A stretch of 64,000 nt of DNA from Rubripirellula sp. (GCA_049602075.1 JBMYRF010000020.1:68240-132239), one strand, 5' to 3'; shown: positions 1 to 19,794, numbered from the stretch's first letter. A program made the numbers and translations. The notes: a model not told the origin generated them from the letters alone.

Positions 1-931
1 CAAACCCTCGCCCGTCATCACTCAGGTAAGTGAGCGTTCCGGGAGCGATTTGATTCTCAGGGATGTCATCTTGCCAACGGGTTGGGCTCTCTGGGTTTCG
101 GAAGGGTCGGCAAAATAGATTGTCGAATACCAGTCCGCCACCAGATACCTGGGTCAAGGACCCATTCATGGCTGCCGTACGGATATCTCGCTCACCTAAA
201 TCGGTCGCGATTTCACCCGCTGCGATCGTGTTGGACAAACCATCGAGAATGTCACGGAAGCGAGTCGTCATACGAGTCACGAACACGCCGCGGCCGGATG
301 CACGCATCTGTTGCGACAAGAAGTTCTCGGCCGAGTTAGGCTCACGGAGATAGTAATAAGGGATGCCGGTGTGATTCCAGCTACTCGCATCGCCAAGGCA
401 AGCGGCGTAGTTAGTTCGGCCGCCGGCAGGCAATCCGTTGCCCGGATCGCTTGGGCAGCGAAACGTAGGAATCTCAGTTCGCCAAGGAACGTACTGGGTT
501 CCGATCCCCCAGTTATGTGGCGTTGGACCCATCGCTGGCCATGGCTGGTCGATCGATCCAGGTCCCGTAGTCCGGCCGTCAACTCGTTCCGTGCTTGGAT
601 TGCTAATCTGCTCCCATAAAGCTTGCTGCTCGACGAAAGGTAGCAAACCAACCAAGTAACTCAAGGATTGCCGGTTCACTAGCGCATCTGGAAAACCGAA
701 AAAAGAGACGTTCTTTCCAGTACCCGCACCCTGCCGCGGCAACTGTTTGTACGTCGAATGATAATTGTGCATTCCCAAGCCAATTTGCTTGAAATTATTG
801 CTGCAGCTCATACGGCGAGCTGCTTCCCGGGCCGCTTGGACGGCTGGCAAAAGCAAGCCGACAAGCACGCCAATGATGGCGATAACCACCAGCAGTTCAA
901 CCAATGTGAACGCTGCTCGAGACTTTTTCAT
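1..931 (-). CDS. DUF1559 (SBP_bac_10) prepilin-type N-terminal cleavage/methylation protein; 3' end runs off the window
   Basis: Not in the ORF track because there is no stop in the window. Manual translation from ATG at 931: [60 protein letters not shown]...RCPSDPG...RTNY...[18 protein letters not shown] lies just upstream. Confidence 0.95.
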
Positions 932-967
932 AAAACGACCTCTTGAAAAAAGAACAAAAAAAACAGA

Positions 968-1156
968 CTAATTTCCTGGTGTGAAATCTGGTTTGAAATC
1001 ACCCTTGGCTTCTTCCATGCGGGCGTCTCTGTTCGCCTGAACTTCAGCGGACACGTCGCCCTGCACCACTGTGTTTTCTTCCTTGCCGCAACCGCTGAAA
1101 GCGATCGGCATAGCGAACAGAAACGAACCGAGTAGTAAATTCCGAGCAATATTCAT
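968..1156 (-). CDS. Small (62 aa) lipoprotein upstream of the DUF1559 gene
   Basis: Basic N-terminus, hydrophobic stretch and lipobox FSG-C. AGGA RBS upstream. Co-directional with the DUF1559 gene 36 bp downstream. Confidence 0.75.
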   Translation of the reverse strand: MNIARNLLLGSFLFAMPIAFSGCGKEENTVVQGDVSAEVQANRDARMEEAKGDFKPDFTPGN

Positions 1157-1859: not shown

Positions 1860-1934
1860 GGTGGCTGTAGCTCAGTTGGTTAGAGCATCGGATTGTGGTT
1901 CCGAGGGTCGGGGGTTCGAATCCCCTCAGCCACC
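1860..1934 (+). tRNA. tRNA-His (GTG)
   Basis: GTGGCTG/CAGCCAC acceptor stem, D-arm AGCTCAGTTGGTTAGAGC, anticodon arm TCGGA-TTGTGGT-TCCGA, T-loop GGTTCGAATCC. G-1 (1860) and C73 (1934) are the tRNA-His identity pair. The 3' CCA is not encoded. Confidence 0.97.
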
Positions 1935-2039
1935 CTTCTCCTAGATCGGCAGGGTTTTTGCGCATCTCAACTGACGCTCGCCTGGTCAACAGTAGCTCTC
2001 TGTACTAGCCAACCCCGGCCCATTGGGGCGTCCGCAGGC

Positions 2040-2090: not shown

Positions 2091-2193
2091 GTCTTGTCTC
2101 TCTTGGTGTTTCCGATCGACGGATCACAGTTTCTAGACATGACGGCGGGTGTCGATGTGCATCTTCTCGGCGAACCCCACGGAAGTTCAAGTG

Positions 2194-3681
2194 CTACGGA
2201 AGTTCGAGGTCGACACCGCACAAGACAAACGCTCGGTCGGGTTCAGTGGTTCCATCTCGTTGCCGTTCTTGACGAAGGCGTTCGATGTCGGCGTAGGCTT
2301 TGGCTGCTTGCGCAGCATCGATTTGTCCGCCCGATTGATCGAAGCTGACCCGCATCGCTCTCCAGGCAAGTGCCTCGAGTGGACGTTGTAATTGATCAAG
2401 TAAGTCAGCAAGCTTTCGCATTTCATCTGCGGTAACTGATCCGCCGGCAAGTTTTTTCCCAATCGTCTGTGTCTGACCGATTAGTTCGGCTCTTGCTGTG
2501 ATTCGGTCTGCGTCGTTTGACCGGTTGAGTGCTACCAAGGACTTGGCGAGCCATTGGTAAGCGTCTTGGTTCGTTGGGTCAGCGATGATGACCGAGGCGA
2601 GTGCTTTTGCCGCTTGATTGGCCTCCTCGATTTGTAATTGATAGACACCCCAGGCAAAGCTTGCCTCCGGATTGGCAGGGGTATTCGGGTACTCGCGTAG
2701 GGCCCACTGCTTCAATTTTTCTCGCTGTTGCTGCTGGGCGTAAATTCGACCCCGCATCGCAACGACTTCCTCTGTTTGCTCGCTGCGGTCGAGATCTCGT
2801 TGTGCCTTGTCCCATTCGCCCCGCCCTACCGCCGCTTGGGCACGTCCCAGTGGAGTGATGGGGTCCACGTTCTCAGGCAAGTTCATTTGATCGGAGAGTG
2901 GAATTGAAATCTTCAGCAACATCATCAGCTCAGGCAAGTTAATGTCACCGGAGGCGCAAAGCGACTGAAAGATTCTTGCCGCTTCCAGGCGTCGACCTTG
3001 ACGCAAAAACATCAATGCGAGTTGGCGGTCGATAAACGATTGCGAGGCGTCGTCGACCTCATGGCGGAGCGCTTGATATCTTTTTTCAGCCTCATCTGTT
3101 TCGCCCATTTCAACCAGCCACTCGGCAGTCTGCCCGATGGCTGGAAGCCAAGTTTCCGGGTGGGCCGCCGCCAAGCGGTCAAGCGTTCGAACCGCTTCGT
3201 GAAAACGCCTTCGGGCAGCCAGTCCGCGAGCGACCGTGAAAAGCACGTTGGGATCGTCGGGGGCGAGTTCTCTTGCTTGGAATGCCACTTTCAATGCAGA
3301 CTCAGTTTCCCCGGTTTCCAGTAGCTCAATGGCTTTTTCGACCAAGCTCTCTGGAGAGGCCAAACGCTCAGGAGAGGCGAGGCTATCGACAGAGAGTGGC
3401 ACTCCGGCGGTTGCTGGTGCAGTTGTTGCGGGGCTGGCGATTCGCTGTGAAACGCCAATTGATCCAGCCTCGGTTGTTTTCTCTGCTGGCGGGGCGATCG
3501 GCTCAAAAGGTTCGGGGGCAATTTGCTGATCAGCCTCGCTCCCGCAGCCGGCTATCATCAGGCCAAGCAGACTGGCCGCGAGCATGCCTGCGAATTTTCT
3601 AGCCGGATCGAACCCAGTGCCCGATCTTGGGAGGCCGTGATCGTTCCAATGGGAGGAATTTCGAAACGCGTTTTGCATCAT
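2194..3681 (-). CDS. TPR-repeat lipoprotein, homologous to the N-terminal half of the neighbouring FG-GAP/ASPIC proteins but without the FG-GAP domain
   Basis: 495 aa ORF with lipobox IAG-C and TPR-like helices (APDDPNVLFTVARGL, ADPTNQDAYQWLAKSL). Its LCASGD motif matches LCRQGD/LCKLGD of the paralogs. The start ATG overlaps the upstream stop (ATGA, 3678-3681). Confidence 0.85.
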   Translation of the reverse strand: MMQNAFRNSSHWNDHGLPRSGTGFDPARKFAGMLAASLLGLMIAGCGSEADQQIAPEPFEPIAPPAEKTTEAGSIGVSQRIASPATTAPATAGVPLSVDSLASPERLASPESLVEKAIELLETGETESALKVAFQARELAPDDPNVLFTVARGLAARRRFHEAVRTLDRLAAAHPETWLPAIGQTAEWLVEMGETDEAEKRYQALRHEVDDASQSFIDRQLALMFLRQGRRLEAARIFQSLCASGDINLPELMMLLKISIPLSDQMNLPENVDPITPLGRAQAAVGRGEWDKAQRDLDRSEQTEEVVAMRGRIYAQQQQREKLKQWALREYPNTPANPEASFAWGVYQLQIEEANQAAKALASVIIADPTNQDAYQWLAKSLVALNRSNDADRITARAELIGQTQTIGKKLAGGSVTADEMRKLADLLDQLQRPLEALAWRAMRVSFDQSGGQIDAAQAAKAYADIERLRQERQRDGTTEPDRAFVLCGVDLELP

Positions 3682-4970
3682 GGTTCAGGATGGATACGGA
3701 TCCAGTGGTCGTGGAATTCGGTTCCGTACTCATCAATCGTTGTGGAAGGCATGTGGCATTCAATGCAATTCGTGGTCGCCGAGACTGGGCAGACGGTGTG
3801 AGGCTTGGCTGACGATGTTTTGGTTGTTTTCGGTTCTGTCGCAAGCTCTGACGCTGTTGCCTCGGAGTGATGACACTCGATGCACTTATCGATGTAAACC
3901 TGAGGCTCGATCGCGGTGATCGTGGTATGGGGGTCGTGGCAGGTGGTGCATTTCAGCTGTCCCTCTGATTCGAGATAGCACTCGCTTCTCAGCAATCCGA
4001 TCGGCTGGAAACGTGTTAACGGTTTGGGGTACTCGCGAAGCTCTGTTTGTGAGATTGCGGCGGGCATCCGGTGGCAGTCGCCGCAAAGTTGAATTTCGGC
4101 TTCCGCATTCCAGTCTTGTTTGCCCACCGAAAATGGTGGAGGTGGATTCATGCTGCGGGCTTGTTGGACGTGCACGCTGCCGGGGCCATGGCACTTCTCG
4201 CAATTCACGTTGGGGGTCAGGTTAACGATCCCTTGGTTCTCAATCGTACCCGTCGTCACATGGCAATCGACGCATTTTCGCATGACTTCGCCAACGTGCT
4301 TTTGGCCGAAAAGTTCGCTCAATGTTTCTGGTTGGGTATGCAGCTGGCCGGGGGTGGCTCCCAATTGATCGCCATTGCGATACCACGACGCACGGTGCTC
4401 GATCCCGACAGTCCCTTCCTTTGGGTCGGGAACAAGCGACAAAAGTGTCATTCCATGATGGCCGGAACCGAGCGCATACTGCAGTTGAAAAGGTTGATCG
4501 CCAAACTTTGCTGGAATCTTGGCGAGCAATCCGTCTTTGCCAGATTCGTAGGTGTAAGTTCCATAGCCTTCCGGCGTGGTGTAGGTGCGTCCTGAGAATT
4601 TCTCGACAACTTCGGGTTCGTCTGCCGCGCGGAACGTGTGCGCGTGGCCGTGCGCGGCGTGTAGACGATGGTTCTCAGCGTGGCATTCCCCGCAAACCTG
4701 TTTGCCCACGTAGGTTGCATTATGGTTGAGCGATGTTTGCGCGGTGGTCGTGGCGATGCGATTGAGCTGATTGCCACTAACCGGTTCGACTGCCAGAGGC
4801 GAGTTCGTCTCAGGGGTTTCAGCGCCGACCGGCGGCTGAGCTCCAGCTGGCGATTCCCGCCAAAGGCTGATGTAAAAGACCGCTAAGGTGCTCGAAGCGA
4901 TCAGCGCGATAGAGGTTGAACGGCTCGGTTTCAAGGCTTTATTTGCTGTAGCGAGATCGACGGGAAACAC
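3678..4970 (-). CDS. Multiheme c-type cytochrome (7 CXXCH; cytochrome c554/c'-like N-terminal part)
   Basis: CGECH, CVDCH, CEKCH, CGDCH, CTTCH, CIECH, CIECH. N-terminal hydrophobic signal/anchor segment. Start codon uncertain. Confidence 0.9.
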   Translation of the reverse strand: MFPVDLATANKALKPSRSTSIALIASSTLAVFYISLWRESPAGAQPPVGAETPETNSPLAVEPVSGNQLNRIATTTAQTSLNHNATYVGKQVCGECHAENHRLHAAHGHAHTFRAADEPEVVEKFSGRTYTTPEGYGTYTYESGKDGLLAKIPAKFGDQPFQLQYALGSGHHGMTLLSLVPDPKEGTVGIEHRASWYRNGDQLGATPGQLHTQPETLSELFGQKHVGEVMRKCVDCHVTTGTIENQGIVNLTPNVNCEKCHGPGSVHVQQARSMNPPPPFSVGKQDWNAEAEIQLCGDCHRMPAAISQTELREYPKPLTRFQPIGLLRSECYLESEGQLKCTTCHDPHTTITAIEPQVYIDKCIECHHSEATASELATEPKTTKTSSAKPHTVCPVSATTNCIECHMPSTTIDEYGTEFHDHWIRIHPEP

Positions 4971-5061: not shown

Positions 5062-5093
5062 AAAAAAACCTCGCCCACAAAGGAGCGAGGTTT
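5062..5093 (-). terminator. Rho-independent terminator downstream of the DUF1559 gene
   Basis: Minus strand reads AAACCTCGCTCCTTTGTGGGCGAGGTTTTTTTG: a GC stem (CCTCGC/GCGAGG) followed by U7, about 30 nt after the stop at 5122. Confidence 0.8.
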
Positions 5094-5121
5094 CTGAATG
5101 ATCGGCAAATGATCTTTAGAA

Positions 5122-6414
5122 CTACTGATTCAGTTGCTCTTCGATCGTTTCGCGGCCATTTCGGCTACCGAGTGCACCCCACAAACCGTAGGGGCTCTTG
5201 GCACCGGCGTTCCATGGGCGATTACTTCCCCAAGGATGGCCAATGGTTCGAGCACTCTGATCACCAGCTTCAATCGAGTCGGTGATGAAGACAACAGCAC
5301 CATCAGCCATCAGGATGTGAACACCACCTTGGTGACGGCTACTTGGCGGTGAAGTACCGACGTTGTCGTACCAGTGCGCGGTGCAAACTTCCGAGTTTGG
5401 AGGACGGATGGTGTGAACTGCGGTCATTGACATGGTTGCCCATGCCCAGTTCATGCCACGGCCAGCCTGTCCATCCATTAGGCGTCCTGGCTGGTTGCAG
5501 TTTTGACTGGTTGGGCCACACCAGAAATTCGGACGTTCTGGATCGATCCATTGACGTTCGACACAGAGCAGCGGATTGTCATCGACAACCCAACTTTGTG
5601 CGGGTGCAGCGAGTGCACTTCGCTTGTCGAGGTCGCCAAGGTCAGTGATGATTTCGCCACCAGCAACCGTGTTGGACAAACCATCCAGGATGTCACGAAA
5701 TTTAGTGTCTTTTCGCTTGGAGAAGACTCCACGGTCGGCAGCGGTGAAATATTTCGCACGCCAATTGTCACCCATGGTCAGGTTATGGTTCTTAGGACCG
5801 TGATCCCAAGTTTGGGTCCAAGAGTCACCCAGGCATACGCCGTAGTTGGTTCGACCGCCGGCTGGCAAGCCTTCGCCAGGATCGCTGGGACAGCGCAGGG
5901 TCGGAATCTCTGTAACCCAGGGAACAAACCGGCGTGATTCTTGACCGTTTCGATCGAGGCGTGGATTCGGCCCCATCGGTGGCCAGTAGCCGAGTTGGCC
6001 GGCTGCGCGTGGGAGAGGGTACGGGTTGCCGTTTGGATCGAGCGCTGTTTCCGATCCACCATTAGCGATTTTTTCCCAGAGAGCTTGTTGCTCCAGGAAA
6101 GGAGTCAGGCCAACTAGAGCGCTGAGCTCTTCGTTGTTCGTCGTGCTCGAGCCTTCCCACCAGGCATTGTTGCCGTCGAGAACGCCGAGGCCTGTGCCGC
6201 CGTAGTGGCGAGGCAATTGTTTGTATGCGGAGTGGTAGTTGTGCATTGCCAAGCCGACTTGCTTGAAATTGTTGCTACAACTCATCCGACGGGCTGCTTC
6301 GCGAGCGGCTTGTACAGCCGGCAGCAGAAGCCCTACAAGCACGCCAATAATGGCGATTACGACCAGTAGTTCCACCAGCGTGAAACCACTTGACGTCTTC
6401 CTGCGTAAAGACAT
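5122..6414 (-). CDS. DUF1559 prepilin-type N-terminal cleavage/methylation protein with C-terminal H-X9-DG motif
   Basis: G|[45 protein letters not shown] and [14 protein letters not shown] (H-X9-DG). GGAGG RBS. Confidence 0.96.
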
Positions 6415-9500: not shown

Positions 9501-9699
9501 AGGAGACGGCTACTTTTGCAGTAACGAAAAGACGTTGATCGCGGGTATCGGAGAAGCGAACGAGGTGACAGAGGTCTCTGTGACTTGGCAGGATGGCTCG
9601 GTCGATGAAATCGGTACGCTACCGGCGAATGCTCAGCAGTTGATTGTTCAGGGGTCCGGAGAAGCATTTACGCTTTTGCGTTACCCGGACGCCAAGTGA
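6535..9699 (+). CDS. TPR + FG-GAP (CRTAC1-like) + ASPIC/UnbV lipoprotein, paralog 1
   Basis: 1054 aa. Lipobox SLG-C, TPR region, Ca-blade motifs DYDLDGWPD, DFNEDGFAD, DMNGDAIAD, DLDHDGDLD, DLDNDGIDE, DVNRDGSND, and C-terminal SRDAVGAVI...GDGYFCSNE. True start is probably downstream of 6535. Confidence 0.92.
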   Translation: MLREFYRLLCRGYVVNCDQSAPLRSLLGTSLDSGGVRFPFLPCFKKLGNSGLCLCFFTFLVLISLGCNRAASDQSGKIEPKGAQRVAESPLEPDPAVAMRAAVAARDWPTAAKYSKLALIESPEDPDLIAMAAAITAFQGRKREAARMLAEAARIADYQPISRVEMAVSGLTGVGEIYPAIELLEASLQKHPNRNEHRQMLVGFWNEMQRTDKIPPHLQKLIQQRSFSLALLVTTTETGSRRLSEKTSERLEERNPDDLRSRLADAFVLLYRRNAAEAVEILQEMLERHPDFAPAHAMYGQALVASLRWSDIPAWVEQSVPGSRDFADHWLTLGDFAMEQQQPAQAVRAYWEATRRDPNQSIAWDRLRLAIQRLRASDSPQATEVTEQQVAVIAEHANNLLAAREAFNDFTGSMESQTGAMQLAEALAKVGRTWEAEAWSALATTMTKQPNNRLEAVRAAIVATLQRDPSWFAKETPAHRLDFSALPLPVINAGRSEPINNLIVPRVVMHDHILMKDVTNQVGLRGVGDGNDPSDPRLAALIRSTGTGGGSLDYDLDGWPDLLVMNAGGSMLEMDSLPNQLMRNLEGRFVSVGKIAGIDDTHYGQGLAVGDFNEDGFADLFFANLGENLLLRNNGDGTFTDCTENLAGNRIRSWSTSGAFVDMNGDAIADLITTQYCLPVAKLPDPCAKENGELGPCHPLTFPADTDQFFAGSPSGEFAEVTKRWVGDPVPGRGLGVLSGALDGRSLGIFVANDMSRNSFYAQADFSDSSSSKMKLVDSGSARGVAVDGRSLAQASMGIAASDLDHDGDLDLYVTGFGREYNIYYEQIAPGLWKDETAKLNLIEPTLSLVGFGTQAIDLDNDGIDELVITNGNIGEFMDPDRPYAQPIQFFRRDRDGRFAELDDDAWGEYFRTSHVGRALWISDVNRDGSNDLVVTHTREQISLLVNESADQNNRIAFKLTATRNSRDAVGAVIRFTVDDKRRVVWMLSGDGYFCSNEKTLIAGIGEANEVTEVSVTWQDGSVDEIGTLPANAQQLIVQGSGEAFTLLRYPDAK

Positions 9700-10105: not shown

Positions 10106-10229
10106 CAAATCATCCAAGCTTAACGGGAATATGAGCCCCGACGGCAGTCATCAAGGCACTCTGTAGATCTCTAATAATACTAGAAAATTTTCCGCTCAAC
10201 AGGGTACCGGGCTTGCCGCATCGGATGGA

Positions 10230-13448: not shown

Positions 13449-16400
13449 TTAACGATCAACTGGCTCGCGATCAGTTTCTTCGTTCAGCGAAAACGGTGCA
13501 CTCTGGTTTTCAATGACCAGCAACCGCTGATTGGTTTGCAAATCTTGAATCGACTGTATTTTTCCACTTGGCCAGTGAATGGTCATTTCTTCCACCGTTT
13601 CAATTTCACCCAAGCCAAACGAAATCATCGGTTCGTTACGACAAAAGAAACCATCGCCCGCTGTCACCCACTCGGTAAACTTTCGATTGCCGGCGCGGAG
13701 TTCGACGCGTGCTCCCACTGCATCTCGTTCACTTTCGACGCCTCGCAAGACAAGTTGAACCCAGTGATTCGAATTTGGGCTTTGGTTCACAAGCAACGCC
13801 GAAGACTCTCCAAGATGCGTGACGACAAAGTCAGGAAGCCCATCACGATTCCAATCCAATCTTGCCAAGCCCCGTCCAAGGTGATTGCGGTTCCAGTAAC
13901 CCGAATCATCAGTCACTTCGGCTAGCTCGAAACGGTCACCCAGGTTGCGGAATAACTGGACCGGTTGCGCGAACGGGGCCCCGCTGTTGACGGAATCCTC
14001 AATGTGTCCGTTTGCGACGACCAGATCAAGATCTCCATCGTTTTCATAATCGAGTGCTTGGGTTCCAAAGCCTAAAACCGATTGGCTTGGCACTGCAAAT
14101 CCGAATTGAATGTTCCGATCCTGATACATGCCCTGCTCATTCAAGTAGTGGCTGACGCTTTCGCCTTGGAAATTGGTGATGTGAAAATCGAGCCACCCAT
14201 TCCGATCAAAATCACCGGCGGCGATCCCCATTGATGCTGTTTTTGCTCCATTGAATCCATAGGCACAGCCGATCAGCATCGCGACATCGGTCCAGTCACC
14301 CGATTTTGCGTCCCGTTGCCAGAGTTGATTTGCGTAGACGTCATTGCCAACGAAAACCTCGTTCCCAGGTTGGTGGTCAAAATTTCCCACGACAACGCCC
14401 AGCCCAGCACGAGCGGCGGTCTCCGGTTTCCCCATTGGTAAAAAAGTGGGATCGCCTTGAGCGTTCCCGATGATCAGGCGGTCGAGCCCCGGTTGAAATT
14501 CCTTGGGCATCAGCGTTTCGATCACTTGCCCCTGCGGATTGCGACGCGGGCGTTTACTGATCTGTGAATCATGAATGTAATTCACTTCAAAAATGTCGGG
14601 AAGTTGATCACCTGTAAGATCACCCATTGCCAGCGAAGTGGTCATTACCGTCGTGTCGTCAAGGTCATCCAGTGCTTGTCGGCGAAAGGTTCCATCACCG
14701 TTGTTGATTAGTAATGTGTTCGCACCGATGTTTGCCACGACGAGATCTGGGAATCCGTCCTGGTTCCAATCGCCGGCAGTCACACCTAAGGAATAGCGGT
14801 AGTCCGCCGCGCCAGCAAGTTCCGTAATATTGCGGACTTTTACACCTTCACCGCGGTAAAGTTGATTGCTGCTGTCGCCCTGAAAGGTAGGAGGATCACC
14901 GCCGCCTTGAGAAAAATACAAATCGATTTGGCCATCACAGTCGTAATCCAAAACCGCCACGGCACCACCAACGGACTGGTAAACCGAGAATCCGTTGGTT
15001 TGCAATTCGCTGGCGACTTGGAAAGCGTGTTGTAGACCGATTTCGTCTGCCCTGTTTGCAAAGCTAGCTGGCAGATGGTTCGCGTTCTGTGGACCAAGAC
15101 CGGTGGACGTTACTGTGTTGGACTTGATCAGCGAGGCGAGGTTTGGGAGCGGGAATTGTTCTCGATTAATTTGGCAAATTCGCGAACGGATGTGCGAGAG
15201 ACTATCGCGATTGCTGGCTGCACTCGTCAACTTAGAGTAAAGCGGTTGCAGTTGTTCGGCGGATAGTTTCCGATGGAACCCTGCTACCAAACGCCAGACA
15301 GTCGATTCAAGTTGACGATCCATTGAATCAAGTAGCTCGGCTAGGTTGTCCATCGCCTCCACATTCGGAGTGGCGGAGTCGACGATCCGATTGTTTTCTC
15401 TGGCGATTGCTTCGAGGTTTTGGAAACGTTTTTCCAGGCGAATCGCCTCTTCCGGCTGGCCGAGCGATTCCAGGATGGATCGTAGTCGACTGATTGAGCG
15501 AAAATCGGTCGGGTCACGAACCAGCGCCTCGATCAACGCTCGCCCCGCTTCGGGAAGACGGTTTTCTGACAACAGGACTAGTCCGAGGGCGGCCCAATAA
15601 TCGGCATGTTCCTGTGTTTGTTGATCGACGTGAGTTAGCCACCAATCAATGCTCGGTTCGTCTTGCGCTTCCGCTGCGGCACGCCCGAACAGCGCTAGCA
15701 CAGATGGCGGCTGTTTTCCTGTCGTCACGGCAGTACGCAGTACCTCGACGGTTTCTTGATACTTGTCTTCCATGAACAGTCGTCGCGCTTCGGCCGCTGG
15801 CCCAATCGGCCAGTAAGGTCTTTCGGCAGGATCACCGGGGGCCTGCCCCTGCGGCGTATACATCGCATCGCTCAGTTGGATCAAAGCGTGTAGTTCATCC
15901 TGCTGGACATCACCCTGGCGACACAATTGATAAAGATGCGTGGCGGCTTCGTGGCGACGACCTTGACGGTTATAAAGGTATGCCAAATTGCGATGTGCTT
16001 GGCTCGCCAGCGGAGCGACTTCCAAGATCTTCAGGTAGCGTTCTTCGGCTTCCTGGTACCGTTCCAAGAAAAAACACCAATCGGCTGATTGGCCTAGTGC
16101 GGGTAGTCCTGCATCCGGATGATCGGAAGGAATTGCATCAAGCAGTTCGATCGCTTGCGCGAGATCATTTCGATTGGCAACGAGCATCGCCAAGCGAAAA
16201 ATAACTTCTGCATCAGTTGGGTCTCGGACGAGCAACGACTTGAGTTTTGCCTCGGCCGAAGTGACATCGCCGCTGGCAAGCAACTGCCCGATCGATTCGA
16301 GCTCGGCATCGCGATTGACGATCTTGTTGGGTGGTTCGGCGTTTGCGTTGGGCCGCGATTGTGAGGTGTCGGTTACTGCTGACGGGTTTCCTGTTTCGGC

Positions 16401-16622
16401 TGACGGGGTTTTGCTGGAGGGTTTTGATCCGTTGAATGATTCTGATTCCTTAGGACTAGTCGTCGACGGTTCGGATTTCGTTGGTGCGGGTGTGATCGGG
16501 ATTTCATCCGTCTCGCAGCCTGCCTGGGGCAGTATCCCGAAGCTCAACGTAAGTGTCAGAATCAGTGGTTTGATGGTGGTCGAGATTGCTCTCGAATGCC
16601 TTGGGAGCACCAGCGTCTTCAT
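13449..16622 (-). CDS. TPR + FG-GAP + ASPIC/UnbV lipoprotein, paralog 3
   Basis: 1057 aa. Lipobox QAG-C, DYDCDGQID, DWNQDGFPD, DLTGDQLPD, DFDRNGWLD, DYENDGDLD, DWNRDGLPD, ERDAVGARV...GDGFFCRNE. Confidence 0.93.
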   Translation of the reverse strand: MKTLVLPRHSRAISTTIKPLILTLTLSFGILPQAGCETDEIPITPAPTKSEPSTTSPKESESFNGSKPSSKTPSAETGNPSAVTDTSQSRPNANAEPPNKIVNRDAELESIGQLLASGDVTSAEAKLKSLLVRDPTDAEVIFRLAMLVANRNDLAQAIELLDAIPSDHPDAGLPALGQSADWCFFLERYQEAEERYLKILEVAPLASQAHRNLAYLYNRQGRRHEAATHLYQLCRQGDVQQDELHALIQLSDAMYTPQGQAPGDPAERPYWPIGPAAEARRLFMEDKYQETVEVLRTAVTTGKQPPSVLALFGRAAAEAQDEPSIDWWLTHVDQQTQEHADYWAALGLVLLSENRLPEAGRALIEALVRDPTDFRSISRLRSILESLGQPEEAIRLEKRFQNLEAIARENNRIVDSATPNVEAMDNLAELLDSMDRQLESTVWRLVAGFHRKLSAEQLQPLYSKLTSAASNRDSLSHIRSRICQINREQFPLPNLASLIKSNTVTSTGLGPQNANHLPASFANRADEIGLQHAFQVASELQTNGFSVYQSVGGAVAVLDYDCDGQIDLYFSQGGGDPPTFQGDSSNQLYRGEGVKVRNITELAGAADYRYSLGVTAGDWNQDGFPDLVVANIGANTLLINNGDGTFRRQALDDLDDTTVMTTSLAMGDLTGDQLPDIFEVNYIHDSQISKRPRRNPQGQVIETLMPKEFQPGLDRLIIGNAQGDPTFLPMGKPETAARAGLGVVVGNFDHQPGNEVFVGNDVYANQLWQRDAKSGDWTDVAMLIGCAYGFNGAKTASMGIAAGDFDRNGWLDFHITNFQGESVSHYLNEQGMYQDRNIQFGFAVPSQSVLGFGTQALDYENDGDLDLVVANGHIEDSVNSGAPFAQPVQLFRNLGDRFELAEVTDDSGYWNRNHLGRGLARLDWNRDGLPDFVVTHLGESSALLVNQSPNSNHWVQLVLRGVESERDAVGARVELRAGNRKFTEWVTAGDGFFCRNEPMISFGLGEIETVEEMTIHWPSGKIQSIQDLQTNQRLLVIENQSAPFSLNEETDREPVDR

Positions 16623-16632
16623 GATTACAGCC

Positions 16633-19600
16633 TCACCGTTCTAGCTCAAACCAACTGTCATCTGTTTCGACCACCAAAATCCGATGATCGATACCGACAT
16701 TGTTTAGGATCTGGTTCGCTCCACTCGGCCATTGGATCTGCACGCGATCGATCTTCGTCGCCGTACCCAGGCCAAAGGAGACGACTGCTTCGTTGCGGCA
16801 GAGATAGCCATCGCCGCCGACCGCCCACTCGGTCCAGCGACGTTCCTCCGATTCGACAGTGACCTTGGCACCTACTGCGTCTCGTTCACTTTCGACCCCG
16901 ACCAGTCGCAGTTGCAGCCAATGCCCCGACGTTTTCGATTCATTCATCAGTAGTGCCGAGGGTTCATTCAAGTGCGTGACGACTAAGTCGTTTTTGCCAT
17001 CTCGATTGAAGTCGATTTTCGCCATCGCTCGTCCAAGATGAGGTTGGGGCCAATAGCCGGACGGATCCGAGACGGTGACTTCCTGAAACTGCTTTCCCAG
17101 ATTGGCGAACAGCTGTGATTTTTGTCGGAATGGTCCACTCATTTTCGCATAGTCGTCGATGTGTCCGTTTGTCACGGCGAGATCGAGCAGTCCGTTGTTG
17201 TCGTAGTCAAGTGATTGTGACCCAAAGCCGAGTACTCGGTAACTCGGGACACCAAGGCGAAACTGGGCGGCGCGATCTTGGAAGTAGCCATTCTTGGCAA
17301 GATACAGGCAGACGTTTTCGTTCTGGAAATTTGTGACGTGTAGGTCAAGAGTCCCAGAGTGGTCAAAGTCACCAGCGGCAATTCCCATGCTGGCCGTCCC
17401 GCCGCCGTCAAACGAATAGGCGGCACCGGTAATCATCGCAACATCGGTCCACTGCTGGGAATCTTGATTACGAACCCACAGTTGGTTGGGCGATTTATCG
17501 TTCCCAATGAAAATATCGTTACCCGGTTGCTGATCGAAGTTAGCGATCACGACGCCAAGTCCGCGAAACGCCTCGGATGATTCCGCACCGATTGAGTCAA
17601 AGCGAATTGCTCCGCTGCCATCGTTTAAGCCGATTCGGTCTTGAACAGGCGCGAAGTCAGCCGGGCCGACTGCTTCGATGACACGTCCCGAATCCTCGCG
17701 TTCGGGAAGCATCGCGATTTCCGAATCTTGGATGTAATTTACCTCGACCAAATCGGGCAGATTGTCTCCGTTTAAATCACCAATTGCGACCGATGCCGGC
17801 ATACGTTCAAGGCTATCGCTGCCAGGGAGCGCGCGAGCGGTAAAGGTGCCATCGCCGTTATTGATCAAGAGTTGGTTCGGGCCGATGTTGGCTGTCACCA
17901 AATCAGGGAAGCCATCCTGGTTCCAATCGCCTGCGGTACAGCCGATGGTGTAGCGTCGATCCGTTGCGCCGGAGAAATTTGTGACATCAATGACTTTCCC
18001 GCTCAGGTTTCGCCATAAGCCATTCGATTGTTCAGCGATGAAATCTGGCGGGGCAGCAGCACCTTGGGCAAAGTAAAGATCAGGATTGCCATCTTGGTCA
18101 TAGTCGATGACCGCGACACCTCCGCCCGTTTGGTGGTACATCGAAAAACCGGATTCCAGCGGCTGCGGTGCAAGTTCATACCGATGGGTCAAACCGACTT
18201 CTGCCGCGGCATTTCGGAATTGTGCCGGATTCGCTTGAGAAATGGATGCGACGCGATCGCCCGATCGATCGATCGATGCGTCACGCAGGTTCTTGATGTT
18301 GGGCATCGCAAAGGCCGTGAGTTGCATTTCGCAGATCCGTTTGTTGCGTTTGGGGAAATCGGTACCCGCCGCGACCAGTTTTTGGCGTTCGCGATTCCAA
18401 TGCTCCAATGCGTCTTTTGGTAACTTTTGATGGTAGGCTTCGAGCGACTTCCAGAGTACGGCTTCTAGGTTTCGTCCCAGCCCCGAAAGTTGAGAAGCAA
18501 TTTCATCCATCGCTTCGACGTTTGGCGTTCGACTGTCTGAGATATCATTGTTTGCCAGCAGTACTTTACGATTTGAATTCCAACGCTTCTCCCATTGATC
18601 TGCATCGGTTGATTTTCCGAGCAAAGTCAGCATCTGGTAGAGACGATTCATCGAGCGAAAGTCAGTCGGGTCTCGGTCGAGCGCTTCGAGAAACGCCCTC
18701 GCCGCTGCTTCGTGTTGCTGACGCCCCGCCAGATGGGTTGCGATCGCTGACCAGTATTCCGAGAACTGACTGATCGTTTCGAGGTCAGTGAGTCCGTTAA
18801 GCCAATTCTGAAATGCTTCGTCGTTTTGGGCCTCGGCAAGAACTCGACCGTAAAATGCGTTGATCGCAGGTGGTGCATCGCCAGCCGCGATTGCGTTCCC
18901 TAACATTTCAGCCGCTTCGGCATATCGACGTTCGGTAAAAAGAACCCGTGCTTTTCCTGATGGTCCGATGGGAGTGTAGTCCGTCGTGGCATCCGCTTGT
19001 GCACTCGGTTCGCTCGACATGGCGTCGCTCAGAATGACTAACGCATGCAATTCGTCCTGGCGAAAGTCTCCAAGCTTGCAGAGCTCCCGAATGTGGACCG
19101 CCGCCTCATGCCGCCGACCCTGACGATTGAAGAGTTGCCCCAGCCGACGGTGAGCCATCGCTGCATCGGGAGCAAGCTGCAGAATTGCTTTATAACGCCG
19201 CTCCGCTTCATCAAAATTCCCGAGTTGAGCAGACCAGTCAGCTGATTGACCAAGGGCGGGAAGTCCAGCTTCGAAGTTATCTGCGGGAATTAGATCGAGG
19301 TACTCGACGCCAGCTTTCAAGTCGCCAGAGACTGCGCTGATGTTGGCCAGCCGAAATAACACGTCTACATCTTCTGGATCGACCAGCAATTGCTCCCGCA
19401 GCAATTTGGTGGCTTCGACTAGCTGTCCCCCTTGCAGCATCTGGTCAATCCGCCCAAGTTGCTGTTCGCGGTTCAGTGGCGGAGCAGCGGTGTTCGCATA
19501 CCGGTTGCCACCTGTGGCTGTCTCAAACTCGGGAGTTGATTGGCCGCTAACCCGTTCGAGATTTTCAGACTCATTCGTCGGTGTTGGGGTGGTCGAGTCA

Positions 19601-19794
19601 GAGCAGCCAACGGACAGAAGTGCAGTGAATGCCAACAGCAGGTAAACACGAACTGGCAACTGGCAACCATTCAATGGCACCTGATAACCACAATCTGGTT
19701 TAGCCTTGCGAGTCGCCGAGGAAGGAAATGCCATCGGTCTCGATCGCCAAAATTCGAACTTTTGCATTGCCATCAACGCCGCCCTGAGAGGCAT
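16633..19794 (-). CDS. TPR + FG-GAP + ASPIC/UnbV lipoprotein, paralog 4
   Basis: 1053 aa. Lipobox SVG-C, DYDQDGNPD, DWNQDGFPD, DLNGDNLPD, DFDHSGTLD, DYDNNGLLD, DFNRDGKND. Its stop is 10 bp upstream of the paralog 3 start. Start codon uncertain. Confidence 0.93.
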   Translation of the reverse strand: MPLRAALMAMQKFEFWRSRPMAFPSSATRKAKPDCGYQVPLNGCQLPVRVYLLLAFTALLSVGCSDSTTPTPTNESENLERVSGQSTPEFETATGGNRYANTAAPPLNREQQLGRIDQMLQGGQLVEATKLLREQLLVDPEDVDVLFRLANISAVSGDLKAGVEYLDLIPADNFEAGLPALGQSADWSAQLGNFDEAERRYKAILQLAPDAAMAHRRLGQLFNRQGRRHEAAVHIRELCKLGDFRQDELHALVILSDAMSSEPSAQADATTDYTPIGPSGKARVLFTERRYAEAAEMLGNAIAAGDAPPAINAFYGRVLAEAQNDEAFQNWLNGLTDLETISQFSEYWSAIATHLAGRQQHEAAARAFLEALDRDPTDFRSMNRLYQMLTLLGKSTDADQWEKRWNSNRKVLLANNDISDSRTPNVEAMDEIASQLSGLGRNLEAVLWKSLEAYHQKLPKDALEHWNRERQKLVAAGTDFPKRNKRICEMQLTAFAMPNIKNLRDASIDRSGDRVASISQANPAQFRNAAAEVGLTHRYELAPQPLESGFSMYHQTGGGVAVIDYDQDGNPDLYFAQGAAAPPDFIAEQSNGLWRNLSGKVIDVTNFSGATDRRYTIGCTAGDWNQDGFPDLVTANIGPNQLLINNGDGTFTARALPGSDSLERMPASVAIGDLNGDNLPDLVEVNYIQDSEIAMLPEREDSGRVIEAVGPADFAPVQDRIGLNDGSGAIRFDSIGAESSEAFRGLGVVIANFDQQPGNDIFIGNDKSPNQLWVRNQDSQQWTDVAMITGAAYSFDGGGTASMGIAAGDFDHSGTLDLHVTNFQNENVCLYLAKNGYFQDRAAQFRLGVPSYRVLGFGSQSLDYDNNGLLDLAVTNGHIDDYAKMSGPFRQKSQLFANLGKQFQEVTVSDPSGYWPQPHLGRAMAKIDFNRDGKNDLVVTHLNEPSALLMNESKTSGHWLQLRLVGVESERDAVGAKVTVESEERRWTEWAVGGDGYLCRNEAVVSFGLGTATKIDRVQIQWPSGANQILNNVGIDHRILVVETDDSWFELER

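What the first reader, a model, noticed from the sequence alone, without database searches (positions are those of the whole stretch)
1..19794. 20-kb modular envelope system: DUF1559 prepilins + micro-lipoproteins + four TPR/FG-GAP/ASPIC lipoproteins + multiheme cytochrome
Seen: every protein gene in this block is export-targeted. Two carry prepilin N-termini, seven carry lipoboxes (FSG-C, IAG-C, SLG-C, LIG-C, HVG-C, QAG-C, SVG-C) and the cytochrome has a hydrophobic anchor. No cytoplasmic enzyme is present. Established: DUF1559 and FG-GAP/ASPIC-UnbV families are greatly expanded in Planctomycetota and have no assigned function. Inference: this is a repeated cassette (prepilin-like variable subunit + small lipoprotein + TPR-scaffolded Ca-propeller, optionally a redox partner) forming an uncharacterised surface or periplasmic complex. 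It may be a pilus-associated capture, sensing or redox machine assembled by a GspE/F-type platform like the one at 39-45 kb.
Basis: partly seen in the sequence, partly recalled or inferred. Interest (0 to 1): 0.75.

Follow-up and report, generated by a model that had tools for sequence, protein, structure and literature searches.

The report
Conserved pilin–cytochrome–propeller envelope gene module
This 20-kb block from a marine Rubripirellula (Planctomycetota) is a conserved, previously undescribed five-part set of exported proteins (a pilin-like protein, a tiny acidic lipoprotein, a seven-haem cytochrome, a TPR lipoprotein and calcium-propeller lipoproteins). It gives the first genomic context to two large protein families of unknown function, although what it does is still inferred.

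Summary
Window 1-19794 carries 10 protein genes, all with export signals, plus one tRNA-His. They are two DUF1559 prepilins, two micro-lipoproteins, a TPR lipoprotein, a 7-haem cytochrome c and four TPR/FG-GAP/ASPIC (CRTAC1-like) lipoproteins.

The adjacency is not chance. In 79 cytochrome-centred loci from Pirellulaceae genomes:
- a TPR-only gene lies within 1 kb in 70;
- a DUF1559 gene lies within 1 kb in 52, about 47 times the distal-flank density;
- the micro-lipoprotein family is found in 46, usually as propeller > micro-lipoprotein > pilin.

Two gene orders exist. One genome can hold three paralogous modules, and cytochrome and pilin clades are congruent (ARI 0.92). The propeller paralogs are orthogroups that keep fixed positions. 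One metagenomic protein is a natural cytochrome-TPR fusion.

Distant homologues of the cytochrome (27-30% identity, all seven haem motifs aligned) sit beside CRTAC1-like propeller and TPR genes in soil metagenomes. The trio therefore extends beyond this family, while the pilin and micro-lipoprotein appear only in the planctomycete-type loci.

The function is inferred: a TPR-scaffolded, pilin-associated redox and binding complex in the envelope. Linkage to the GspD/E/F genes at 39-45 kb is not supported. I found no prior description.

The parts
2..931 (-). pil1: DUF1559 prepilin-type protein, second micro-lipoprotein/pilin unit. The C-terminus runs off the window. The processing site reads A|FTLVE.
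   Evidence: PF07596 E 8e-50 and N_methyl 29 bits. 52% identical to pil2. The same l>P unit follows the TPR gene in L003-L005 and L024. Covered by metatranscriptome contigs.
968..1156 (-). lip62: micro-lipoprotein (FSG|C), 36 nt upstream of pil1.
   Evidence: Strict lipobox. Member of the conserved micro-lipoprotein family (jackhmmer E 7e-9). 84-94% identical orthologues at the same position in L003-L005. Partly covered by RNA contigs at 748-1035 and 1109-1272.
1861..1935 (+). tRNA-His (GTG). This is a landmark that interrupts the block and is not part of the module.
   Evidence: ARAGORN. Rfam 70 bits. Same position in L003-L005.
2194..3681 (-). T: 495-aa TPR-only lipoprotein (IAG|C), translationally coupled to the cytochrome gene.
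   Evidence: TPR Pfam hits. 27% identity over about 420 aa to the N-terminal TPR module of proteins C and D. Adjacent to the cytochrome in 70 of 79 loci. Fused to the cytochrome in P0247.
3678..4970 (-). C: heptahaem c-type cytochrome with an N-terminal signal or anchor helix, a variable linker and a beta-rich insert (about residues 113-254).
   Evidence: 7 CxxCH. All motifs are invariant in 82 homologues, as are 7 further His, Met407, Cys331 and Cys394. AF2 pLDDT 79; best Foldseek matches are OcwA, OmhA and MccA.
5064..5095 (-). Terminator-like hairpin (13-bp stem plus T-run) between pil2 and the cytochrome gene. It probably attenuates transcription.
   Evidence: Strongest site in the pattern scan. 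Metatranscriptome depth falls from about 16-32 over pil2 to about 2-6 over the cytochrome, with contig ends at 5085-5103.
5122..6414 (-). pil2: 430-aa DUF1559 prepilin (G|FTLVE) with the H-X9-DG motif. It is the cytochrome-adjacent pilin.
   Evidence: PF07596 E 3e-61, TIGR04294 33 bits, N_methyl 31 bits. The subfamily is 52-76% identical across genera and has conserved Cys residues (4 invariant, 2 nearly invariant). AF2 pLDDT 87: a pilin helix at 13-64 plus a head domain with no PDB match. Highest RNA depth in the block.
6535..9699 (+). R-A: TPR + FG-GAP propeller + UnbV_ASPIC lipoprotein (SLG|C), inverted relative to the rest. The likely true start is TTG at about 6655.
   Evidence: Pfam. Five Dx[DN]x[DN]G motifs. 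The A-type orthogroup holds the same inverted position between micro-lipoprotein and pilin in L001, L003, L004, L012, L016, L019, L026 and L027.
9890..10117 (-). lip75: micro-lipoprotein (LIG|C), 112 nt downstream of R-B. The family consensus suggests a start at the MKK codon (about 10105).
   Evidence: Strict lipobox. Seed of a family found in 46 related loci. Exact full-length RNA contigs at 9863-10155.
10230..13226 (-). R-B: TPR/FG-GAP/ASPIC protein with an atypical lipobox (LHVG|C). This is the orthogroup that precedes the micro-lipoprotein/pilin unit wherever both genes were seen.
   Evidence: Pfam. The B-type protein is the propeller gene next to l-P in both type I and type II loci.
13449..16622 (-). 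R-C: TPR/FG-GAP/ASPIC protein with an atypical lipobox (PQAG|C).
   Evidence: Pfam. 46% identical to D. The C/D-type orthogroup precedes the TPR gene in type II loci.
16633..19794 (-). R-D: TPR/FG-GAP/ASPIC lipoprotein (SVG|C), 10 nt upstream of R-C. The likely start is about codon 39-41.
   Evidence: Pfam. Residues 721-1026 match human CRTAC1 (9etn), E 1e-12. Strict lipobox from an internal start.

Best explanation
The block is one copy (type I) of a conserved five-family extracytoplasmic module of Pirellulaceae.

The module has two tightly linked pairs and a variable set of propeller proteins:
- a roughly 40-residue acidic, Met-rich micro-lipoprotein with a roughly 420-aa DUF1559 pseudopilin;
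- a heptahaem c-type cytochrome with a roughly 450-aa TPR lipoprotein;
- one to several lipoproteins in which the same TPR module is fused to a CRTAC1-like Ca2+ beta-propeller/ASPIC head.

Shown:
- the genes are co-inherited, co-duplicated and co-diversified as cognate sets;
- all products carry export signals;
- all are transcribed in situ, with the pilin far above the rest.

Inferred mechanism:
- The TPR module is a common docking adaptor. It holds either a propeller (in cis) or the cytochrome (in trans, occasionally fused) on a membrane-anchored platform made of the pseudopilin and micro-lipoprotein.
- The propellers bind a ligand in the periplasm or at the cell surface.
- The OcwA/OmhA-like cytochrome passes electrons to or from that ligand. 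Candidates are Fe(III)/Mn(IV) species or another redox-active substrate.
- The pilin is made in excess because a terminator after its gene attenuates read-through into the cytochrome-TPR genes.
For: Conserved neighbourhood:
- 79 cytochrome-centred loci from genome assemblies were annotated with my own profiles.
- A TPR-only gene lies within 1 kb in 70 and a DUF1559 gene within 1 kb in 52. That is 52 hits in 136 kb, against 4 in 488 kb at 4-10 kb away.
- Of 34 loci with at least 7 kb on both sides, 21 have TPR, pilin and propeller together and 7 more have TPR and pilin.
- The micro-lipoprotein family occurs in 46 related loci. It sits directly upstream of the pilin in 35 of 51 cases and is preceded by a propeller gene in 27.
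- No sixth family is conserved across the loci.

Rearrangement and duplication:
- Two gene orders exist: type I (R l [R] P C T) and type II (T< C> <P <l <R).
- One genome holds up to three paralogous modules.
- Cytochrome and pilin clusters are congruent (ARI 0.92). Cytochrome and TPR distances correlate at r=0.875.
- The propeller paralogs are orthogroups that keep fixed positions.

Cytochrome-TPR link:
- The two genes overlap by 4 nt in the window.
- P0247 is a natural fusion that lacks the TPR protein's signal peptide.
- The TPR-only protein is homologous to the TPR module of the propeller proteins.

Cytochrome properties:
- 7 invariant CxxCH plus 7 invariant extra His and Met407.
- The best structural matches are the cell-surface terminal reductases OcwA (E 8e-6) and OmhA (E 9e-5), then MccA.

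Wider context:
- In 80 control loci centred on generic CRTAC1-like genes, 4 carry a full-length homologue of this heptahaem cytochrome next to propeller genes, with TPR genes in the same locus. Only 1 carries a DUF1559 gene.
- A published precedent places CRTAC1-family genes between haem-protein genes (PMC12758564).

Expression:
- Marine and estuarine metatranscriptome contigs cover every gene class. Depth over pil2 is about 5-15 times that over the cytochrome, TPR and propeller genes, and it drops at the hairpin at 5064-5095.
Against: - No physical interaction, location or activity was tested. Co-folding of pairs was not possible with the tools.
- Structural similarity of the cytochrome to OcwA/OmhA is partial (TM about 0.3).
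- Only 3 of the 7 extra invariant His (plus Met407 and a His/Met position) are kept in the distant soil homologues. A catalytic haem therefore cannot be excluded.
- No quinol dehydrogenase, porin or other electron entry or exit component is conserved in the flanks.
- The loci were sampled from the cytochrome, so the share of propeller/lipoprotein/pilin units that lack a cytochrome is unknown. One orphan pilin of the subfamily exists.
- The correlated distances partly reflect shared species phylogeny.
- Metatranscriptome contig depth is a poor measure of expression.
- The hosts are aerobic heterotrophs for which no extracellular redox metabolism is known.
Confidence: 0.55

Rival explanations
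1. Dedicated export device. The DUF1559 protein, with its micro-lipoprotein, is a cargo-specific pseudopilin of a type II secretion-like machine. Its only job is to push the co-encoded lipoproteins (cytochrome, TPR protein, propellers) across the outer membrane, and it is not part of the working complex. Models are T2SS-dependent surface display of MtrC/OmcA in Shewanella and PilA-N/C-dependent export of OmcS/OmcZ in Geobacter (own knowledge).
For: - The N-terminus of pil2 is GspG/pilin-like, and the best PDB sequence match is Geobacter PilA-N (E 9e-8).
- The H-X9-DG motif is present.
- All neighbours are exported proteins, mostly lipoproteins.
- The window's GspD-E-F cluster has no pseudopilin genes beside it.
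- The pilin is the most abundantly transcribed gene in the block.
Against: - No secretin, ATPase or platform gene is linked to the module in 79 loci.
- The pilin carries a large conserved head of about 360 aa with conserved Cys residues (4 invariant, 2 nearly invariant). It co-diversifies with the cytochrome (ARI 0.92), which fits a specific partner better than a generic piston.
- The soil versions of the cytochrome/TPR/propeller trio have no pilin at all.
Confidence: 0.2
2. Nutrient capture and uptake system of the PUL type. The CRTAC1-like propellers bind, or cleave, a polymer or chelate at the cell surface. The pilin/micro-lipoprotein unit takes the place of the TonB-dependent barrel seen in other phyla. 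The cytochrome only conditions the substrate, for example by reductive release of iron.
For: - Two of the four soil loci that hold the homologous cytochrome, TPR and propeller genes also encode CarboxypepD_reg+OMP_b-brl_4 (TonB-receptor-like) barrels.
- The propellers carry 4-5 Dx[DN]x[DN]G Ca2+ motifs each.
- Pfam files DUF1559 under the name SBP_bac_10, and it has been called a solute-binding family (PMC2754498).
Against: - No CAZyme, sulfatase, transporter or regulator is conserved next to the module.
- Such barrels are plentiful in the likely source phylum, so two cases may be chance.
- Only one invariant His and one invariant Cys occur in the propeller region of the four paralogs, so no obvious catalytic or metal centre is visible.
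Confidence: 0.15
3. Biogenesis factors rather than a machine. The TPR proteins would be pilotins for a pilus secretin (like PilF/PilW/TadD/Tgl), or apocytochrome chaperones (like CcmI/NrfG) that serve maturation of the pilin or the cytochrome.
For: - Weak sub-threshold NCBIfam hits to type_IV_pilW, Tgl and GltE.
- Faint TPR_CcmH_CycH Pfam hits.
- JGI annotators named two homologues 'Flp pilus assembly protein TadD'.
Against: - All these hits lie far below the curated cut-offs (for example 29 against 154 bits).
- There is no specific PDB relative.
- The module is about 450 aa, roughly twice the length of known pilotins.
- The same module is fused to haem-free propellers, present in 1-5 copies per locus.
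- A fusion to the mature cytochrome argues for a stable partner, not a transient chaperone.
Confidence: 0.07
4. Chance clustering of highly expanded planctomycete families, with no functional link.
For: DUF1559 is very abundant: 74 genes in R. baltica and 68 in P. limnophila (PMC2754498, PMC10632474).
Against: - The density of DUF1559 genes next to the cytochrome is about 47 times the distal-flank density.
- At 74 genes per R. baltica genome, only about 1.4 chance hits would be expected where 52 are seen.
- The subfamilies are specific and congruent.
- The set is conserved in two different gene orders.
Confidence: 0.01

Closest known systems
Type II secretion / type IV pilus pseudopilins (GspG, PilA), including the Geobacter PilA-N/PilA-C and Shewanella T2SS links to multihaem cytochromes
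   Same: The DUF1559 proteins share a class III signal peptide, an N-methyl site and a long N-terminal helix (residues 13-64 in the model) with pilins. The best PDB sequence hit is Geobacter PilA-N. A pilin-type gene sits beside a multihaem cytochrome gene.
   Different: The roughly 360-aa head has no solved structural relative. No secretin, ATPase, platform or minor pseudopilin gene is linked. The pilin has an obligate micro-lipoprotein partner. The TPR-propeller proteins have no counterpart in those systems.
OcwA (Thermincola potens, 6i5b) and OmhA (Carboxydothermus ferrireducens, 6qvm) cell-surface multihaem terminal reductases, and MccA sulfite reductase (4rkm)
   Same: These are the best structural matches of the cytochrome model (Foldseek E 8e-6, 9e-5 and 2e-3, probability at least 0.99). 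They are multihaem c-type proteins that work outside the cytoplasmic membrane.
   Different: Seven haems here, against 9, 11 and 8. TM-score is only about 0.3 and identity 15-18%. The window protein has a beta-rich insert at about residues 113-254. The host is Gram-negative and aerobic. No S-layer or cell-wall context applies.
CRTAC1 / ASPIC / UnbV family (human cartilage acidic protein 1, PDB 9etn)
   Same: FG-GAP beta-propeller with Dx[DN]x[DN]G Ca2+ motifs followed by an UnbV_ASPIC domain. Residues 721-1026 of protein D align to CRTAC1 at E 1e-12.
   Different: The window proteins are bacterial lipoproteins with a family-specific N-terminal TPR module of about 450 aa. They lack the EGF-like tail. 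They are encoded next to a cytochrome, a pilin and a micro-lipoprotein.
Porin-cytochrome conduits (MtrCAB, PCC clusters)
   Same: Gene clusters for exported or lipoprotein multihaem cytochromes that act in the cell envelope.
   Different: No beta-barrel porin and no second periplasmic decahaem protein occurs in the Pirellulaceae loci. There is a single heptahaem protein.
HZS-like haem/propeller gene clusters that contain a CRTAC1-family gene (PMC12758564)
   Same: A CRTAC1-family FG-GAP gene is embedded between genes for c-type haem proteins in non-anammox bacteria.
   Different: The haem proteins are different (HZS alpha- and beta-gamma-like). No pilin, micro-lipoprotein or TPR fusion is reported there.
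Archaeal bindosome (substrate-binding proteins with pilin-type signal peptides; own knowledge, not tested here)
   Same: Pilin-type processing is used to anchor a large binding head at the membrane surface.
   Different: The domain of life, the folds and the partners all differ. This is an analogy only.

Membership tests
DUF1559 / H-X9-DG prepilin-type proteins (PF07596, TIGR04294) | PF07596 domain above the gathering score | tested here: met
   pil1 171 bits and pil2 208 bits, against a cut-off of 23.3.
DUF1559 / H-X9-DG prepilin-type proteins (PF07596, TIGR04294) | N-terminal prepilin cleavage/methylation motif (G|FTLxE) | tested here: met
   N_methyl 29 and 31 bits, cut-off 21.2. pil2 reads G|FTLVE and pil1 reads A|FTLVE. 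In related loci 52 read G and 6 read A.
DUF1559 / H-X9-DG prepilin-type proteins (PF07596, TIGR04294) | C-terminal H-X9-DG motif | tested here: met
   pil2 scores 33 bits on TIGR04294, cut-off 19. H361...D371-G372 are invariant in 64 homologues. In pil1 the region lies outside the window.
CRTAC1 / ASPIC-UnbV family | FG-GAP repeat propeller plus UnbV_ASPIC domain | tested here: met
   FG-GAP_3 at 80-112 bits and UnbV_ASPIC at 50-71 bits in all four proteins. 4-5 Dx[DN]x[DN]G motifs each. Match to 9etn at E 1e-12.
Multihaem c-type cytochromes | Several CxxCH haem-binding motifs in an exported protein | tested here: met
   7 CxxCH, all invariant in 82 homologues. N-terminal hydrophobic helix at 17-36. 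Covalent haem binding itself cannot be tested here.
OcwA/OmhA-type surface terminal reductases | Shared fold and haem arrangement over most of the protein | tested here: inconclusive
   Foldseek probability is 1.0, but TM is 0.30-0.33 over 225-349 columns at 15-18% identity. The sequence match covers one haem motif only.
Bacterial lipoproteins (Lgt/LspA substrates) | Lipobox [LVI][ASTVI][GAS]C at the end of a signal peptide | tested here: met
   Strict PROSITE-type pattern in lip62, lip75, A and D. TPR495 fits the box but has a long N-region. B and C are atypical. This was a regex test only, with no dedicated predictor, and acylation cannot be tested here.
Type II secretion system operon | Pseudopilin genes linked to GspD/E/F and a prepilin peptidase | tested here: not met
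   GspD/E/F lie at 39037-45192, about 19 kb away across unrelated genes. No secretion gene is conserved in the flanks of 79 related loci.
Porin-cytochrome (MtrCAB/PCC) conduit | Outer-membrane beta-barrel porin gene next to the periplasmic and outer cytochrome genes | tested here: not met
   No barrel gene in the block, and none conserved in Pirellulaceae loci. Barrels appear only in two soil loci, and they are TonB-receptor-like.
TPR lipoprotein pilotins (PilF/PilW/TadD/Tgl) and CcmI/NrfG apocytochrome chaperones | Score above the family cut-off, or a specific solved relative | tested here: not met
   Best scores are 18-29 bits against a cut-off of 154 (PilW), and 21 against 225 (Tgl). No specific PDB hit for the TPR-only protein.

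The most novel reading that the evidence does not exclude
The heptahaem cytochrome, TPR adaptor and CRTAC1-like Ca2+ propeller form a previously unrecognised envelope redox machine. It is widespread, occurring in Pirellulaceae and in unrelated soil bacteria. Pirellulaceae have plugged it into a dedicated DUF1559 pseudopilin with an acidic micro-lipoprotein, where other phyla may use TonB-type barrels. If so, this would be the first functional assignment for a DUF1559 subfamily and for bacterial ASPIC/UnbV proteins. It would also imply that many of the 70 or more DUF1559 paralogs per planctomycete genome are cargo- or partner-specific pilin-like anchors.
Probability: 0.3. Interest if true: 0.85.

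Novelty: categorically new. Interest (0 to 1): 0.7.

Why it matters
- DUF1559 is the largest paralogous family in many planctomycete genomes: 74 genes in R. baltica and 68 in P. limnophila, two of them essential there. It has no known role.
- ASPIC/UnbV (CRTAC1-like) proteins are equally obscure in bacteria, and the animal homologue is a clinical biomarker of unknown biochemistry.
- A five-gene module with cognate paralogous sets gives both families a concrete context with defined partners. That context can be tested in cultivable strains of Rhodopirellula, Stieleria, Novipirellula and Roseiconus.
- If the cytochrome acts on material bound at the envelope, abundant marine surface-attached heterotrophs would gain an unsuspected extracytoplasmic redox capacity. 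This would bear on iron and manganese acquisition or on the turnover of redox-active organic matter on algae, particles and sediments.
- The module could also be a new example of pilin-type proteins used as membrane anchors for enzyme complexes.

Tried and rejected
- **Chance adjacency.** Rejected by the distance-bin analysis and by subfamily congruence.
- **A sixth conserved partner (regulator, transporter, quinol dehydrogenase, secretion gene).** Clustering all other flank ORFs gave nothing present in more than 10 of 79 loci. The 10-locus family is an unannotated polytopic membrane protein confined to one module class and absent from the window.
- **Cytochrome-TPR fusions within the 80 genome loci.** None found. 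One was found in the protein database instead.
- **PDB sequence and fold searches for the pilin head and the TPR-only protein.** No informative relatives.
- **Reciprocal scan from the propeller proteins in metagenomes.** The back-translated patterns were generic FG-GAP motifs, so the scan returned mostly distant soil CRTAC1-like genes rather than orthologues. I used these as a control set. They unexpectedly revealed the distant cytochrome/TPR/propeller association.
- **'All seven haems are bis-His.'** I toned this down after seeing that 4 of the 7 extra His are not kept in the soil homologues.
- **A Cu-binding role for the Met-rich micro-lipoprotein, and a 'TPR clamp binds its acidic tail' idea.** Both were considered from the sequence only. 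They are untestable here and are kept as suggestions.
- **RNA-seq from an isolate.** None was found for R. baltica locus L027. Only metatranscriptome contigs were usable.
- **Literature.** Searches for DUF1559, ASPIC/UnbV with cytochrome, H-X9-DG, planctomycete multihaem/EET and CRTAC1-family terms found no description of the module.
- **Rfam and promoter scans.** Only the tRNA was found, and there was no excess of sigma-70-like sites.

Full report
**What is in the window**

ORF listing, translation, Pfam and NCBIfam scans give ten protein genes and one tRNA in 1-19794.

| Coordinates | Strand | Product |
|---|---|---|
| 2-931 | - | DUF1559 prepilin (pil1), C-terminus beyond the window edge |
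| 968-1156 | - | 62-aa lipoprotein (lip62) |
| 1861-1935 | + | tRNA-His |
| 2194-3681 | - | 495-aa TPR-only lipoprotein (T) |
| 3678-4970 | - | 430-aa cytochrome with seven CxxCH motifs (C); overlaps T by 4 nt |
| 5122-6414 | - | 430-aa DUF1559 protein with the H-X9-DG motif (pil2) |
| 6535-9699 | + | TPR + FG-GAP + UnbV_ASPIC protein A |
| 9890-10117 | - | 75-aa lipoprotein (lip75) |
| 10230-13226 | - | TPR + FG-GAP + UnbV_ASPIC protein B |
| 13449-16622 | - | TPR + FG-GAP + UnbV_ASPIC protein C |
| 16633-19794 | - | TPR + FG-GAP + UnbV_ASPIC protein D |

A-D are full-length paralogs (28-46% identity). The TPR-only protein aligns over about 420 residues (25-28% identity) with the N-terminal part of B, C and D. 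The TPR region is therefore a specific shared module and not generic TPR.

A PROSITE-type lipobox test with alternative starts passes for lip62, lip75, A and D. T fits the box after a long N-region. B (LHVG|C) and C (PQAG|C) are atypical, and pil1 reads A|FTLVE. In the remaining 44 kb only 2 of 27 ORFs pass.

**Surroundings**

The rest of the window holds unrelated genes: an ABC ATPase, an EF-hand/PD40 protein, GDP-mannose dehydratase, a NusG-like protein, a polysaccharide export protein, a pterin-binding enzyme, a DUF255 thioredoxin, methionine aminopeptidase, Der, UDG, a Mur ligase, ribosomal protein S1, two DUF1598 proteins, an arginyl transferase and 6-phosphogluconate dehydrogenase.

A secretin, GspE and GspF lie at 39037-45192, about 19 kb from the block. 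No pseudopilin genes follow them.

**Organism and family spread**

- The cytochrome has 842 database relatives at E<=1e-5. The named ones come from Stieleria, Rubripirellula, Novipirellula and Rhodopirellula.
- A scan of species-representative genomes returned 80 loci. The best (95-96% identity) are Rubripirellula MAGs, so the window is from a Rubripirellula sp..
- The same DNA occurs in seawater, estuary, sediment, algal and invertebrate-gut metagenomes.
- Several genomes hold two or three cytochrome loci.

**Is the adjacency more than chance?**

I built profiles from the window proteins (TPR module, propeller part, DUF1559, cytochrome) and annotated all ORFs of the loci. In 79 non-redundant loci:

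- A TPR-only gene lies within 1 kb of the cytochrome in 70.
- A DUF1559 gene lies within 1 kb in 52, that is 52 hits in 136 kb of available flank. Only 4 hits occur in 488 kb at 4-10 kb distance, a ratio of about 47.
- The distal density (0.008 per kb) agrees with 74 DUF1559 genes reported for R. baltica (PMC2754498). Chance would give about 1.4 adjacent cases.
- Of 34 loci with at least 7 kb on both sides, 21 carry TPR, pilin and propeller genes and 7 more carry TPR and pilin.

Independent gene calls with precomputed Pfam hits show the same picture in a Planctomycetota MAG, Stieleria magnilauensis, Stieleria marina and Roseiconus lacunae.

**The micro-lipoproteins are a fifth conserved component**

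- tblastn and an iterated profile search seeded with lip75 find a family in 46 related loci, and lip62 is a member.
- The mature peptide is about 40 residues. It is 24% acidic, 5% basic and 7% Met, with no His.
- Its core reads ..VIEAP..(acidic)..M(E/D)GM(T/S)(D/E)EEYxKAMEESMNQQ.
- The gene sits directly upstream of the DUF1559 gene on the same strand in 35 of 51 cases. It is preceded by a propeller gene in 27.

**Architecture**

There are two recurrent gene orders:

- Type I, as in the window: R(n) > l > [R<] P > C > T.
- Type II: [R<] T< C> <P <l <R.

The propeller paralogs are orthogroups that keep fixed positions:

- B-type was the propeller gene next to the l-P unit in every locus where both were seen, in both orders.
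- C/D-type precedes T in type II.
- A-type is the inverted gene between l and P in type I.

Clustering of all other flank ORFs finds no further family in more than 10 loci. The module is therefore self-contained, and no secretion, regulatory or quinone-linked gene travels with it.

**Co-diversification**

For 43 complete C/T/P triplets, pairwise distances correlate at r=0.875 for C-T and r=0.73 for C-P. Cluster membership of C and P is nearly identical (ARI 0.92 at k=5).

Within one genome (S. magnilauensis, Rhodopirellula SM50, MAG RhM) the three modules differ by 47-51% in C, 60-65% in T and 25-44% in P. Orthologous modules between these genomes differ by only 0-11%. Whole modules were therefore duplicated long ago and kept as cognate sets.

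**Cytochrome-TPR link**

- The genes overlap by 4 nt in the window.
- Protein P0247 (797 aa, one Logan contig) is a cytochrome-TPR fusion. The TPR part (43% identical to T) lacks its own signal peptide, so it is a true fusion and not a read-through. It is a single instance and counts only as support.

**What the parts look like**

Cytochrome:
- All seven CxxCH are invariant in 82 homologues, as are seven further His, Met407, Cys331 and Cys394.
- The AF2 model is confident (pLDDT 79, core above 90). It shows an N-terminal helix, a disordered variable linker and a beta-rich insert between haems 1 and 2.
- The only significant Foldseek matches are the cell-surface terminal reductases OcwA (6i5b) and OmhA (6qvm), then MccA (4rkm), all partial with TM about 0.3 (C. 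ferrireducens context in PMC7829351).

Pilin:
- The subfamily is about 420 aa and 52-76% identical across genera, with four invariant and two nearly invariant Cys residues and H361-X9-D371-G372.
- The model (pLDDT 87) has a classical pilin helix at 13-64 and a head with no PDB match.
- At sequence level only the helix matches pilins, best of all Geobacter PilA-N.

Propellers:
- They have 4-5 Dx[DN]x[DN]G motifs and no haem motif.
- Protein D matches human CRTAC1 (9etn) at E 1e-12.

TPR-only protein:
- It has no specific solved relative, and only far sub-threshold similarity to pilotins or CcmH-type TPRs.

**Expression**

Marine metatranscriptome contigs identical to the window cover pil1, part of lip62, pil2 and lip75.

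Estuarine runs from a strain about 93-95% identical cover pil2 at depth 17-32. They cover the cytochrome, T, A, B and D at about 1-6.

The depth step coincides with a 13-bp-stem, T-tailed hairpin at 5064-5095 on the minus strand, between pil2 and the cytochrome gene. That hairpin is the strongest terminator-like site in the block. All gene classes are therefore transcribed in nature, with the pilin in large excess. Contig depth is only a rough measure.

**A wider association**

A metagenome scan seeded with the propeller alignment returned 80 mostly soil loci of generic CRTAC1-like genes. I used them as a control.

- Only 1 has a DUF1559 gene.
- 4 (L118, L139, L152, L162) carry a full-length homologue of the heptahaem cytochrome. 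These are 27-30% identical, with all seven CxxCH, Met407, His267, His348 and His422 aligned and Cys331 and Cys394 kept in most.
- In these four loci the cytochrome gene lies near unfused FG-GAP/ASPIC genes of about 600 aa, and separate TPR genes lie in the same locus.
- Two of them also encode CarboxypepD_reg+OMP_b-brl_4 barrels.

The cytochrome, TPR and CRTAC1-propeller association is therefore wider than the Pirellulaceae. In these data the pilin and micro-lipoprotein occur only in the planctomycete-type loci, and the TPR-propeller fusion is the rule there (3 of the 80 control loci also scored as fused).

A 2025 paper independently notes CRTAC1-family genes lying between haem-protein genes in non-anammox bacteria (PMC12758564).

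Only 3 of the 7 extra invariant His are kept in the soil homologues, and position 109 changes from His to Met. I therefore do not claim that all haems are bis-His.

**Interpretation**

Shown: a self-contained, co-inherited and co-diversifying five-family module of exported proteins, transcribed in situ.

Inferred:
- The shared TPR module is an adaptor that docks either a propeller or the cytochrome.
- The pilin and micro-lipoprotein provide the membrane-anchored or filamentous platform.
- The propellers bind a ligand.
- The OcwA-like cytochrome exchanges electrons with it.

The acidic, Met-rich tail of the micro-lipoprotein is a plausible TPR ligand, by analogy with EEVD-type peptides (own knowledge, untested).

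Alternatives, each given with its test in the Rival explanations section:
- a cargo-specific export pseudopilin;
- a nutrient-capture device analogous to TonB-linked systems;
- biogenesis factors.

Linkage to the GspD/E/F genes in the window is not supported.

**Novelty**

Six literature searches and several papers read yielded only general remarks that DUF1559 is a large planctomycete family of unknown function. None described this module.

Every part belongs to a known superfamily. The combination matches no described system: it fails the defining features of a T2SS operon, of a porin-cytochrome conduit and of pilotin or CcmI families. I therefore rate it categorically new as a system, and its function is still unproven.

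Noticed in passing
L034, L053, L058, L064, L066, L068, L069, L071, L072, L074 (e.g. L058:2000-3112 +): One module class (type IIb) carries a polytopic membrane protein of about 370 aa, encoded divergently from the propeller-TPR pair. It has no Pfam or NCBIfam match. It has invariant His-rich motifs (PHF..ASYR, WHY.GQ.WG, FHA.QYLMFP, N.HHYF.DAVIWK). It could be the missing membrane or electron-entry component. It is absent from the window.
   Followed up: partly
L087 (Logan contig), protein P0247: A natural fusion of the heptahaem cytochrome with the TPR protein (797 aa) that lacks the TPR signal peptide. It was seen on a single contig.
   Followed up: yes
L118, L139, L152, L162 (soil metagenome contigs): Distant heptahaem homologues (27-30% identity) lie near unfused CRTAC1-like propeller genes, with TPR genes in the same locus. 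L152 and L162 also carry CarboxypepD_reg+OMP_b-brl_4 barrels. L139 carries a PQQ dehydrogenase with a cytochrome c domain nearby.
   Followed up: partly
L142 (4.2-kb metagenome contig): An unfused variant: a DUF1559 gene (365 aa), then a propeller lipoprotein (593 aa), then a TPR protein (429 aa), all on one strand.
   Followed up: no
window 5064-5095 (-): A strong terminator-like hairpin lies directly after the pilin gene pil2. It coincides with a 5- to 15-fold drop in metatranscriptome contig depth.
   Followed up: partly
L001:13217-21161: In the MAG with the 64%-identical module, a tRNA-Met directly follows the TPR gene. After it come about 8 kb of small phage-like genes (CsrA, HTH, DnaB_C), probably an integrated element. 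The window and its close relatives have tRNA-His at that position and no such block.
   Followed up: partly
window 39037-45192: A secretin gene (998 aa, Gly-rich C-terminal tail), GspE and GspF form a cluster with no pseudopilin or prepilin peptidase gene beside it. About 1.5 kb downstream of GspF has no convincing ORF.
   Followed up: partly
window 19880-20014 (+): A small ORF, MATRLSSVSLITGFLITGFLITGFLSTVAC..., with a threefold ITGFL repeat lies between protein D and the ABC ATPase gene at 20176. Whether it is a real gene is unknown.
   Followed up: no
window 48035-49705 (-) and 49357-50670 (+): The longest ORFs for Der/EngA and for the uracil-DNA glycosylase family protein overlap by about 350 nt on opposite strands. 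The Pfam UDG domain starts at residue 278, so the UDG ORF start is probably over-called.
   Followed up: no
window 55305-56981 (-) and 58439-59845 (-): Two DUF1598 paralogs (another planctomycete family of unknown function) flank an arginyl-tRNA-protein transferase gene. The second has a lipobox.
   Followed up: no
window 24115-26103 (+): A 662-aa protein combines multiple EF-hand Ca2+ motifs with PD40/DPPIV-type beta-propeller repeats. It is another exported Ca2+-propeller type close to the module.
   Followed up: no
window 3678-4970 (-), residues Cys331 and Cys394: Two invariant cysteines lie outside the haem motifs. They are mostly conserved in the soil homologues. They could form a disulfide or a metal site like the Cu site of MccA. 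This is unexplained.
   Followed up: no
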